This document shows, piece by piece, positions 104 to 531 of a stretch of 4,582 bases of DNA (position 1 is the first letter of the stretch; every line of letters starts with the position of its first letter). The position numbers were made by a program, and so were the translations under genes. The notes beneath the pieces were generated by a model. It worked only from the letters and a program-made list of their open reading frames with translations, ran no database searches and had not been told where the DNA came from. Source of the stretch: a virus (lineage: Duplodnaviria; Heunggongvirae; Uroviricota; Caudoviricetes); IMG/VR virus record IMGVR_UViG_2706794687_000005; one strand, 5' to 3'.

Positions 104-485
104 CGTTAAAACATCTGCAGATAATGACGTTGACTTGGATACAGATGGATTCAGACAACTGAGGATATCGTGCCCATCCCCTTCTGCCAGCGGTGCGATT
201 ATATTGAGAAAAGCTTCTTATGAATTCGGCAAAAGTATAGGTGTATTTGATTTTGCAAACAATGCATCACCAGCGACGATGACATTTTTGATCCCAATAT
301 ATAAAGATGATGATTTTGATTCAGATACTGTTGGTTTTACATTTGCGTTCAAGATGCCAAGAGGCCAGTTTTTTGTAGATGTAAAAGAAAACGGGAATAT
401 CAGAGCTGGAGTTAATGTTAATGGCGAGTCGGGAGTGACCTACGAAAATTGCAAATTGAATATGAAAGATATTAATGATGATTAA
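90..485 (+). CDS. Hypothetical protein, probable 3' fragment of an AT-rich gene truncated by IS1 (native sequence 104-485, about 127 codons); function unknown
   Basis: Long ORF ending at TAA 483-485, directly followed by a strong terminator. The only start upstream of residue 64 is a TTG at 90 inside the IS1 inverted repeat, with no Shine-Dalgarno. The in-frame ATGs at 279 and 354 also lack a Shine-Dalgarno. The frame is open back across the IS1 junction to a stop at 72-74. GC is about 37% against about 57% for the phage genes. The peptide is hydrophilic and Asp/Asn-rich, with no signal peptide or transmembrane segment visible. Confidence 0.45.
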   Translation: MESLPVKTSADNDVDLDTDGFRQLRISCPSPSASGAIILRKASYEFGKSIGVFDFANNASPATMTFLIPIYKDDDFDSDTVGFTFAFKMPRGQFFVDVKENGNIRAGVNVNGESGVTYENCKLNMKDINDD

Positions 486-492
486 TATATAA

Positions 493-517
493 GCCGCCAG
501 AAATTGGCGGTTTTTTT
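493..517 (+). terminator. Rho-independent terminator downstream of the AT-rich ORF
   Basis: GC-rich hairpin with stem CCGCCA(G) (494-500), loop AAA(T) and stem (T)TGGCGG (504-510), followed by a run of 7 T at 511-517, 8 nt after the stop codon. Confidence 0.7.
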
Positions 518-531
518 ATAGTGGAGACAGT

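What the first reader, a model, noticed from the sequence alone, without database searches (positions are those of the whole stretch)
104..531. AT-rich orphan gene fragment of unknown function next to IS1
This stretch is about 37% GC against 55-60% for the rest of the window. It carries a 127-codon reading frame with no credible start, ending at a strong terminator. That pattern suggests the 3' end of a horizontally acquired gene whose 5' part was removed by IS1 insertion or IS1-mediated deletion. I cannot assign the peptide to a family. It is acidic, Asp/Asn-rich and looks beta-rich. Low-GC mosaic 3' ends of this kind are typical of phage receptor-binding or tail-fibre C-termini, and also of toxin or effector modules. 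This is the only part of the window that could represent something uncharacterised.
Basis: partly seen in the sequence, partly recalled or inferred. Interest (0 to 1): 0.5.

Follow-up and report, generated by a model that had tools for sequence, protein, structure and literature searches.

The report
IS1-split prophage cargo gene
The AT-rich stretch is the back three-quarters of a small accessory ("moron") gene of a phiP27-like prophage, coding for an exported beta-barrel protein of unknown function; an IS1 element has split the gene in two, so this copy is a dead remnant and fairly ordinary.

Summary
Window 104-531 is 37.6% GC against 54.6% for the phage genes. It carries 127 codons with no start, ends at a strong terminator, and abuts an IS1 end.

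Intact 160-codon copies exist in 11 of 5426 complete E. coli genomes, in Shigella flexneri and in phage contigs. They always lie between the tail tape-measure gene and the DNA-circularization (Mu gpN-like) gene.

In a near-identical contig, IS1 is a simple 768-bp insertion with a 9-bp target duplication (CGTTAAAAC). The 5' 37 codons are therefore displaced, not deleted.

The gene is not a tail-fibre tip or a toxin module. It belongs to PHROG 5586 (function unknown). The protein has a signal peptide, two conserved cysteines and a confident AlphaFold model of one helix plus an eight-stranded beta-barrel. No solved or viral structure matches closely.

Phage phiP27 and about 39 closely related E. 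coli prophages lack the roughly 583-bp cassette. This presence/absence, the low GC and the private terminator fit a moron, but no promoter was found.

Function is inferred only. My best guess is an envelope-level protective role such as superinfection exclusion.

Interest is low.

The parts
1..103 (+). Right end of an IS1 element (IRR end), holding the last codons of the transposase gene insB. The insB stop TAA is at 84-86, in the same frame as the remnant.
   Evidence: It is the reverse complement of window 4480-4582. In L011 the full 768-bp element at 5232-5999 encodes InsA and DDE_Tnp_IS1.
104..112 (.). One copy of the 9-bp target-site duplication CGTTAAAAC made by the IS1 insertion.
   Evidence: In L011 the same 9 bp flank the IS1 on both sides, at 5223-5231 and 6000-6008.
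104..485 (+). 3' remnant of a 160-codon moron gene of PHROG 5586 (codons 35-160 plus the stop at 483-485). It has lost the start codon, the signal peptide and the first half of helix 1, so it is a pseudogene fragment.
   Evidence: It is 100% identical to L001 8001-8382, which lies inside the intact gene at 7900-8382 (WP_000594909.1). PHROG 5586 matches at E = 1e-88.
132..149 (+). Codons for D-L-D-T-D-G (residues 44-49), which fit the DxDxDG calcium-loop pattern. The motif is present only in the close subfamilies.
   Evidence: Read from alignments A1 and A3. The pattern is recalled from memory and was not tested.
491..520 (+). Rho-independent terminator belonging to the cassette: stem-loop 491-513 followed by a T-run.
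   Evidence: Found by the terminator scan and the fold (-14 kcal/mol, z = -3.4). Non-homologous terminators occupy the same place after the gene in L003, L036, L038 and L042.
532..1887 (+). DNA-circularization (Mu gpN-like) tail gene. Its first 140 nt are masked as N.
   Evidence: Pfam DNA_circ_N matches at E = 2e-17. The start position follows from comparison with L001 8429.
1884..2966 (+). Baseplate hub gene (Mu gpP/gp44-like). Relative to L001 its last codons are frameshifted by a change from A8 to A7 near 2918.
   Evidence: Pfam GpP-like domains match. The indels are listed.
2944..3477 (+). Mu gp45-like baseplate/spike gene.
   Evidence: Pfam Phage_Mu_Gp45 matches at E = 2e-26.
3483..3893 (+). 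GP46-family baseplate gene.
   Evidence: Pfam GP46 matches at E = 5e-33.
3886..4479 (+). 5' 198 codons of the baseplate J/gp47 gene, cut by the second IS1. The 9-bp target duplication GGGGGCGCA is at 4471-4479.
   Evidence: Pfam Baseplate_J matches. L011 shows the rest of the gene after the IS1 and the duplicated 9 bp.
4480..4582 (-). The same end of a second IS1 copy, in inverted orientation.
   Evidence: In L011 the two IS1 copies are 100% complementary over 769 nt and lie 4412 nt apart.

Best explanation
Window 104-485 is the distal three-quarters of a small accessory gene, a moron, carried by a phiP27-like prophage (HK97-type head, Mu-type contractile tail). The cassette is about 583 bp. 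It consists of an AT-rich leader, a 160-codon gene and its own Rho-independent terminator. It sits exactly between the stop codon of the tape-measure gene and the ribosome-binding site of the gpN-like DNA-circularization gene.

The intact product is exported. It has an N-terminal Sec signal peptide; in this subfamily the peptide also contains a lipobox-like LTSC. The mature protein of about 140 aa is an acidic, single-domain eight-stranded beta-barrel preceded by one helix. Its two conserved cysteines, at the end of strand 1 and in strand 8, probably form a disulfide, and I infer that this bond closes the barrel.

In this genome IS1 inserted after codon 37 and duplicated CGTTAAAAC. That separated the start codon and signal peptide from the rest by 768 bp. 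The window copy is therefore a recently inactivated split gene: it is still 100% identical to intact alleles, and it cannot yield an exported protein.

What is shown: the gene structure, the insertion, the presence/absence polymorphism, purifying selection and the fold class.

What is inferred: the intact protein acts in the periplasm or envelope as a binding or blocking protein that benefits the lysogen or the phage. The most likely role is interference with entry of superinfecting phages, by analogy with other envelope-located products of morons in tail operons. I give that specific role about 0.25-0.3.
For: Intact gene and position. The 428-nt stretch occurs in 11 of 5426 complete E. coli genomes at 97-100% identity. 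In the two records inspected (L001, L002) it lies inside a 483-nt CDS between the tape-measure and DNA-circularization genes.

Simple IS1 insertion. In L011, which is 99.97-100% identical to the window, the 5' 37 codons, a 768-bp IS1 and the duplicated CGTTAAAAC are all present. Both halves are annotated in S. sonnei.

Moron features:
- Phage phiP27 is 96.9% identical over the baseplate genes and has only 15 nt between the two flanking genes.
- About 39 of 50 E. coli genomes with 94-97% identical flanks lack the insert.
- GC is 0.37 for the gene against 0.52 and 0.55 for its neighbours.
- A terminator follows the gene in 5 of 6 diverged alleles, with different sequences.

A real gene. It is an intact ORF in all 32 loci examined. 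dN/dS is 0.07-0.27 across diverged alleles. The AlphaFold model has pLDDT 85 and pTM 0.78.

Exported. Every full-length family member has a basic N-terminus, a hydrophobic core and small residues before a conserved Lys. Each has exactly two Cys in the mature part.

Cargo rather than tail part. Distant members lie in phage-plasmid accessory regions next to partition and toxin-antitoxin genes.

Analogy. HK97 gp15, the first described moron, lies in the tail operon just before the tape-measure gene. It is an envelope protein that blocks phage DNA entry (PMC3594210).
Against: - No sigma-70-like promoter was found upstream of the gene in any allele. Independent expression from the repressed prophage is therefore unproven.
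- In the Salmonella allele (L040) the gene is packed into the tail operon, with 16- and 17-nt spacers and no terminator. That suggests late, lytic co-expression there.
- Divergence of the gene between lineages (about 50% aa identity) matches that of its tail neighbours (52-64%). This fits long residence in the module rather than recent acquisition.
- Whether export uses signal peptidase I or the lipoprotein pathway is unresolved for this subfamily.
Confidence: 0.85

Rival explanations
1. The fragment is the C-terminal, receptor-binding tip of a phage tail fibre, or a toxin/effector module, whose N-terminal body was deleted by IS1.
For: It has low-GC mosaic composition, an acidic beta-rich peptide, and lies in a prophage tail region next to IS1.
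Against: - The complete protein is only 160 aa and begins with a signal peptide.
- It lies between the tape-measure and gpN-like genes. The fibre genes lie about 5 kb downstream.
- The missing part is 37 codons and is present on the other side of the IS1.
- It gives no Pfam, NCBIfam or PADLOC match and no structural match to fibre or toxin domains.
Confidence: 0.02
2. The intact protein is a periplasmic lysozyme inhibitor of the MliC/PliC kind. It would protect the lysogen, or block the wall-degrading activity of an incoming phage tail.
For: - It shares the cell compartment, the size and an eight-stranded barrel.
- Both proteins have Cys at the end of strand 1 and in the last strand. The MliC strand positions are from memory.
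- This subfamily has SASGA followed 14 residues later by Lys. E. coli MliC has ISASGARY...SKG, a sequence checked against PDB 2f09.
Against: - Profile-profile comparison with MliC sequences gives probability 1.1%.
- No family member reaches Pfam MliC even at E <= 10.
- The SASG motif follows strand 1 here but strand 4 in MliC (the latter from memory), so the positions are not equivalent.
- Neither the Ala of SASGA nor the Lys is conserved in distant members.
- Avidins, MoaF and de novo barrels score as well as or better than PliC.
Confidence: 0.06
3. The gene is a genuine tail-module component, such as an assembly factor or a late-expressed helper acting in the periplasm during lysis or progeny release. 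It would not be lysogen-expressed cargo.
For: - It occupies the same slot after the tape-measure gene in at least seven diverged lineages.
- No private promoter was detected.
- In the Salmonella allele it is tightly packed into the operon without a terminator.
- It diverges at about the same rate as its tail neighbours.
Against: - It is absent from phiP27 and from about 39 closely related E. coli prophages with otherwise near-identical tail genes.
- The signal peptide makes a role inside the cytoplasmic tail-assembly line unlikely.
- Relatives occur outside tail modules in phage-plasmids.
- A strong terminator after the gene in 5 of 6 alleles is not what is expected inside a co-transcribed structural block.
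Confidence: 0.1
4. The reading frame is a chance ORF in an AT-rich spacer and not a gene.
For: It has no family annotation and is labelled 'hypothetical protein' everywhere.
Against: - dN/dS is 0.07-0.27.
- The ORF is intact in 32 loci.
- Homologues are detectable down to about 25% identity.
- A confident fold is obtained from a 14-sequence alignment.
Confidence: 0.01

Closest known systems
Phage morons, prototype HK97 gene 15 (Juhala et al. 2000; Cumby et al. 2012; reviewed in PMC3594210)
   Same: - It is extra DNA between two genes that are adjacent in a close relative (phiP27).
- Its GC content differs from that of its neighbours.
- It has its own terminator.
- It is located in the tail operon next to the tape-measure gene.
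- Its product is targeted to the cell envelope.
   Different: - There is no sequence or fold relation to gp15, which is a small inner-membrane protein of the YebO type.
- This cassette lies after, not before, the tape-measure gene.
- No promoter was found.
- Function is untested.
PHROG 5586 (phage protein family of unknown function)
   Same: The intact protein matches over its full length (E = 1e-88), and all 14 diverse relatives match as well.
   Different: The family has no assigned function, so membership names the protein without explaining it. The window holds only residues 35-160.
MliC/PliC periplasmic lysozyme inhibitors
   Different: There is no profile similarity (hhalign probability 1.1%). 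The motif is at a non-equivalent strand and is not conserved across the family.
Receptor- or entry-blocking prophage proteins (phi80/N15 Cor, T5 Llp, Streptococcus TP-J34 Ltp)
   Same: They are small exported or lipid-anchored proteins encoded by temperate phages, some within or beside tail genes, and they act in the envelope. This comparison is from PMC3594210 and from general knowledge.
   Different: No homology was detected, and no exclusion phenotype was tested. This is an analogy only.
Stx2e phage phiP27 tail module
   Same: Window 672-4479 is 96.9% identical to phiP27 genes L48-L52.
   Different: phiP27 lacks the cassette entirely, with 15 nt between L47 and L48, and has no IS1 insertions.

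Membership tests
Moron (as defined in PMC3594210, after Juhala et al. 2000) | Extra DNA between two genes that are adjacent in related phages | tested here: met
   phiP27 and about 39 E. coli prophages have the tape-measure stop, 15 nt, then the gpN start. The cassette-bearing phages have about 583 bp more.
Moron (as defined in PMC3594210, after Juhala et al. 2000) | Nucleotide composition different from the surrounding genes | tested here: met
   GC is 0.37 against 0.52-0.55, and GC3 is 0.31 against 0.52-0.56. The same holds in all alleles (0.34-0.41).
Moron (as defined in PMC3594210, after Juhala et al. 2000) | Own transcription terminator | tested here: met
   A stem-loop at 491-513 plus a T-run, -14 kcal/mol, z = -3.4. 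Terminators are present in 5 of 6 diverged alleles and absent in the Salmonella allele.
Moron (as defined in PMC3594210, after Juhala et al. 2000) | Own promoter, giving expression from the repressed prophage | tested here: inconclusive
   No sigma-70 consensus match was found in the 47-71-nt leaders. Consensus scans are weak evidence either way, and no expression data were available.
Simple IS1 insertion | Complete 768-bp element with InsA and the IS1 DDE transposase, flanked by a 9-bp direct target duplication, with the target gene contiguous once the element is removed | tested here: met
   Shown in L011, which is 99.97-100% identical to the window. The window itself shows only the IS1 end and one copy of the duplication.
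PHROG 5586 | Full-length match to the family profile | tested here: met
   E = 1e-88 over residues 1-160 against profile positions 1-161. All 14 relatives match.
Sec-exported protein | N-terminal signal peptide: a basic n-region, a hydrophobic h-region, and small residues at -1 and -3 | tested here: met
   Seen in every full-length member by inspection and a simple script. No dedicated predictor or experiment was available. The window remnant lacks this part.
Bacterial lipoprotein | Lipobox [LVI][ASTVI][GAS]C at the end of the signal peptide | tested here: inconclusive
   LTSC (P0001) and LISC (P0002) fit the pattern. All other subfamilies lack a properly placed Cys and instead have AxA followed by K.
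MliC/PliC lysozyme inhibitors (Pfam PF09864) | Sequence or profile similarity to the family, including the SxSGAxY and YxxxTKG motifs at equivalent positions | tested here: not met
   hhalign probability is 1.1%. There is no Pfam hit at E <= 10. The motif is on a different strand and is not conserved.
MliC/PliC lysozyme inhibitors (Pfam PF09864) | Inhibition of c-type lysozyme | not testable with these tools
   This needs a biochemical assay.
Tail fibre / receptor-binding protein C-terminus | A C-terminal domain of a long fibre protein encoded in the fibre gene block | tested here: not met
   It is a stand-alone 160-aa protein with a signal peptide, located upstream of the baseplate genes.
Superinfection-exclusion proteins | Expression in a lysogen blocks infection by other phages | not testable with these tools
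   This rests on analogy only (PMC3594210).

The most novel reading that the evidence does not exclude
PHROG 5586 could be a new family of soluble or lipid-anchored periplasmic beta-barrel proteins that phiP27/SfV-type myoviruses carry next to their tape-measure gene. The proteins would block the periplasmic stage of genome injection by related phages, for instance by binding the emerging tape-measure or tail-tip complex. That would make them a periplasmic counterpart of HK97 gp15 or TP-J34 Ltp. The persistently low GC of the cassette might then reflect regulation, for example H-NS-type silencing, rather than recent transfer.
Probability: 0.2. Interest if true: 0.5.

Novelty: new member of a known kind. 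Interest (0 to 1): 0.2.

Why it matters
For this window it matters little. The copy is an IS1-inactivated remnant in a decaying prophage, which is typical of IS1-rich Shigella genomes.

The intact family is of modest interest. It is a widespread gene that appears in thousands of Salmonella, E. coli and Shigella contigs. It is under purifying selection, encodes an exported protein, has no Pfam model and no known function, and occupies a fixed hotspot in the tail operon of a common prophage type that includes an Stx2e-phage lineage. If it proved to be an entry-exclusion factor, it would add a periplasmic mechanism to the known prophage defences. It would also give a handle on how Mu-type tails cross the periplasm.

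Tried and rejected
- Pfam, NCBIfam and PADLOC scans of the intact protein found nothing. Pfam at E <= 10 on all 14 relatives gave only noise.
- A sequence-profile search of the PDB gave only a marginal Calx-beta hit (E = 0.08).
- The first AlphaFold run used 5 close sequences and was useless (pLDDT 40). The run with 14 diverse sequences worked.
- I tested the MliC/PliC idea and rejected it as a membership claim.
- Three giant proteins hit by the family profile (P0017, P0018, P0020) are repeat proteins; P0018 is made of bacterial cadherin/Ig repeats, P0020 has only a type IX secretion signal domain, and P0017 has no significant Pfam match. The short repeated matches cover the acidic D-rich segment, and I take them to be compositional.
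- tblastn of three family members against 50,697 phage records found a single isolate, vB_EcoM-720R4. The plasmid collection gave one marginal hit.
- Literature searches for the protein accession and for that phage name found nothing.
- Promoter searches with both the built-in scan and a relaxed script found no convincing sigma-70 site.

Full report
**1. What is in the window**

Both ends of the window (1-103 and 4480-4582) are the same IS1 terminus in opposite orientations. Between them lies part of a prophage tail module. After a 140-nt run of N (532-671), Pfam identifies five genes:
- a DNA-circularization (Mu gpN-like) gene, up to 1887;
- a gpP/gp44-like baseplate hub, 1884-2966;
- a Mu gp45-like gene, 2944-3477;
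- a GP46-family gene, 3483-3893;
- the first 198 codons of a baseplate J/gp47 gene, 3886-4479.

This block is 96.9% identical to the Stx2e-converting phage phiP27. The finding concerns the stretch between the left IS1 end and the N-run.

**2.

- Window 104-531 is 37.6% GC against 54.6% for 672-4479. No 428-nt window in the phage genes falls below 50% (sd 1.7%). GC3 is 0.31 against 0.52-0.56.
- The frame is open from 87 to the stop at 483-485. Its only upstream start codon is a TTG inside IS1 with no ribosome-binding site.
- A terminator follows at 491-513 plus a T-run (-14 kcal/mol, z = -3.4).
- The peptide has 15 Asp and 10 Asn in 126 residues, counted from the sequence.

**3. The intact gene**

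The 428 nt occur at 97-100% identity in 11 of 5426 complete E. coli genomes. In the two records I inspected the stretch lies inside a 483-nt CDS annotated 'hypothetical protein' (WP_000594909.1 in FDAARGOS_944). That CDS sits between the tape-measure gene and the DNA-circularization gene of a prophage with an HK97-type head and a Mu-type contractile tail.

The full product starts (V/M)IKPFLMTVAILTSCCAQAK. A GGAG lies 8 nt upstream of the GTG start. The window holds codons 35-160.

**4. IS1 split the gene; it did not delete part of it**

An IMG/VR contig (L011) is 100% identical to window 1-531 and 99.97% identical to 672-4582. In L011 the order is: tape-measure gene, cassette leader, first 37 codons, a complete 768-bp IS1 (5232-5999; InsA and IS1 DDE transposase by Pfam), then the remnant. 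The 9 bp CGTTAAAAC flank the IS1 on both sides.

The second IS1 is likewise a simple insertion, in the gp47 gene, with the duplication GGGGGCGCA. The two copies are 100% identical and inverted.

Shigella sonnei records carry exactly the two halves as separate 'partial' proteins: MIKPF...SNVKT (37 aa) and ESLPVKTSADN... (130 aa, WP_252861237.1). The second begins in IS1-derived codons, just like the window ORF. The remnant is still 100% identical to intact alleles, so the insertion is recent.

S. flexneri SFBU1023 keeps the gene intact. In that strain an IS1 lies about 30 nt into the next gene.

**5. It is a cassette added to the tail operon**

- In phiP27 the tape-measure gene L47 and gene L48 are 15 nt apart.
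- A 1.7-kb query spanning the cassette finds 50 E. coli genomes. Only 11 have the cassette. The others match both flanks at 94-97% identity with about 581 bp missing.
- An alignment places the insertion precisely between the tape-measure stop codon and the gpN ribosome-binding site.
- The cassette is AT-rich in every allele (0.34-0.41 against 0.47-0.57 for the flanks).
- In five of six diverged alleles it ends in a Rho-independent terminator. The terminator sequences differ between alleles, so the feature rather than the sequence is conserved.

These are three of the four features in the published description of a moron (PMC3594210). The fourth is a private promoter. I could not find one with the built-in scan or with a relaxed script.

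One Salmonella allele has only 16- and 17-nt spacers and no terminator. There the gene must be co-transcribed with the tail genes.

**6. It is a real, conserved, exported protein**

- The ORF is intact in 32 loci. dN/dS is 0.07-0.27 between diverged alleles.
- A word-indexed search and an exhaustive HMM search of 1.84 billion representatives find a small family of about 150-aa proteins, down to about 25% identity. The members come from E. coli, Shigella, Salmonella (thousands of contigs), Yersinia and Pantoea.
- All members match PHROG 5586, whose function is unknown.
- Every full-length member starts with a typical signal peptide and has exactly two cysteines in the mature part, at aligned positions.
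- The E. coli/Shigella and Yersinia subfamilies also have a lipobox-like L(T/I)SC. Lipidation therefore cannot be excluded for them. The other subfamilies have AxA followed by K.

**7. Fold**

AlphaFold with five close sequences failed (pLDDT 40). With 14 diverse sequences it gave pLDDT 85 and pTM 0.78. The model has the signal peptide, helix 24-41 and then eight beta-strands. Cys57 lies at the end of strand 1 and Cys150 in strand 8.

The fold class is therefore clear, but no specific structural family claims the protein.

**8. The lysozyme-inhibitor idea**

The subfamily motif SASGA followed 14 residues later by Lys recalls the MliC motifs. I verified the E. coli MliC sequence against PDB 2f09. 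The idea fails as a membership claim:
- hhalign gives probability 1.1%, and it pairs only the strand-1 cysteines.
- Pfam MliC is not hit.
- The motif follows strand 1 here but strand 4 in MliC; the MliC strand assignment is from memory.
- The motif is not conserved in distant members.

I keep it only as a low-probability functional analogy.

**9. Genomic contexts of relatives**

Seven diverged lineages keep the gene right after the tape-measure gene. One of them has a HIRAN-domain gene in between. Three distant members lie in phage-plasmid accessory regions beside ParA-type, repressor and toxin-antitoxin genes. The gene can therefore live outside a tail module, which argues for cargo rather than a structural role.

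Between the E. coli allele and that of phage vB_EcoM-720R4 the protein is 50% identical. Its neighbours are 53-82% identical. This suggests long co-residence with the tail module in those lineages, plus recent gain or loss in the phiP27 lineage. The low GC is thus a stable trait of the family, not only a mark of recent transfer.

**10. Mechanism**

Shown:
- It is an accessory cassette in the tail operon.
- Its product is an exported small beta-barrel with two conserved cysteines.
- This copy was inactivated by a simple IS1 insertion that removes the start codon, the signal peptide and half of helix 1 from the remnant.

Inferred: the intact protein binds or blocks something in the envelope. The best-supported guess, by analogy with HK97 gp15 and other envelope products of tail-operon morons (PMC3594210), is interference with entry of superinfecting phages. 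I put that at about 0.25-0.3.

A late-expressed periplasmic helper role is the main rival, at about 0.1. Lysozyme inhibition is at about 0.06.

**11. Verdict**

The gene is complete elsewhere, small and exported, catalogued but uncharacterised, and not a fibre tip or toxin. The window copy is a pseudogene fragment in a decaying prophage, which also carries a frameshift in the hub gene and small indels. Interest is low for the window and modest for the family.

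Noticed in passing
window 532-671: The run of N is 140 nt. The near-identical contig L011 and the E. coli relatives have 176 nt at this place, which is the first 59 codons of the DNA-circularization gene, a Ser/Leu/Pro-rich low-complexity start. The 36-nt difference is in frame. Either the mask is not one-to-one, or this genome has a 12-codon deletion.
   Followed up: partly
window 1-103 and 4480-4582; L011 5232-5999 and 10412-11179: Two 100% identical IS1 copies in inverted orientation bracket 4.4 kb of tail genes. 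Each has its own 9-bp target duplication, so they are independent insertions. The pair could nevertheless invert the segment by recombination.
   Followed up: partly
window 2432-2437, about 2918, and 3586: Three differences from the E. coli prophage L001. First, a 6-nt tandem duplication GCTGGT adds Leu-Val in the baseplate hub gene. Second, an A8-to-A7 change frameshifts the last six codons of that gene, giving an ORF of 360 rather than 351 aa that overlaps the gp45 start. Third, gp46 has a 3-nt deletion. All are signs of prophage decay.
   Followed up: partly
window 84-92: The IS1 insB stop codon (TAA at 84-86) is in the same reading frame as the gene remnant. The only thing separating the transposase frame from the remnant is that stop, followed by one codon and then the TTG at 90.
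   Followed up: no
L004 and L005, about 6530-6663 (Shigella flexneri SFBU1023; 'E. coli' ECMA0423): These genomes keep the 160-codon gene intact. They have an IS1 end about 30 nt into the neighbouring DNA-circularization gene. The same prophage region has thus been hit by IS1 at different sites in different Shigella lineages.
   Followed up: partly
L040 6985-7470 (Salmonella allele, cluster of P0012): Here the family member sits in the tail operon with 16- and 17-nt spacers and no terminator, although it is still lower in GC (0.40 against 0.53 and 0.57). This cluster is very common in Salmonella, with several members seen on 1000 or more contigs.
   Followed up: partly
L036 about 5965-6010 (Yersinia enterocolitica allele, P0002): The annotated start gives a signal peptide that is too short (MMLISCC...). 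An upstream ATG encodes MKKPIYLCL and then runs into a stop in another frame. This suggests a frameshift, or a sequencing error, within the signal-peptide region of this allele.
   Followed up: no
L033 740-1270, L034 2919-3413, L041 1-452: Distant family members (about 25-28% identity) lie in phage-plasmid-like contigs. They sit next to IncFII RepA, ParA-type partition genes, CI-like repressors and toxin-antitoxin pairs (Gp49/HTH; MazE/PemK).
   Followed up: partly
L035 2387-2974: In one metagenomic relative a HIRAN-domain protein gene lies between the tape-measure gene and the family member. The slot after the tape-measure gene may be a general cargo hotspot.
   Followed up: no
L001 2307-5107: In E. 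coli FDAARGOS_944 the tail sheath gene of the same prophage is split by an IS4-like ISEc60 element.
   Followed up: no
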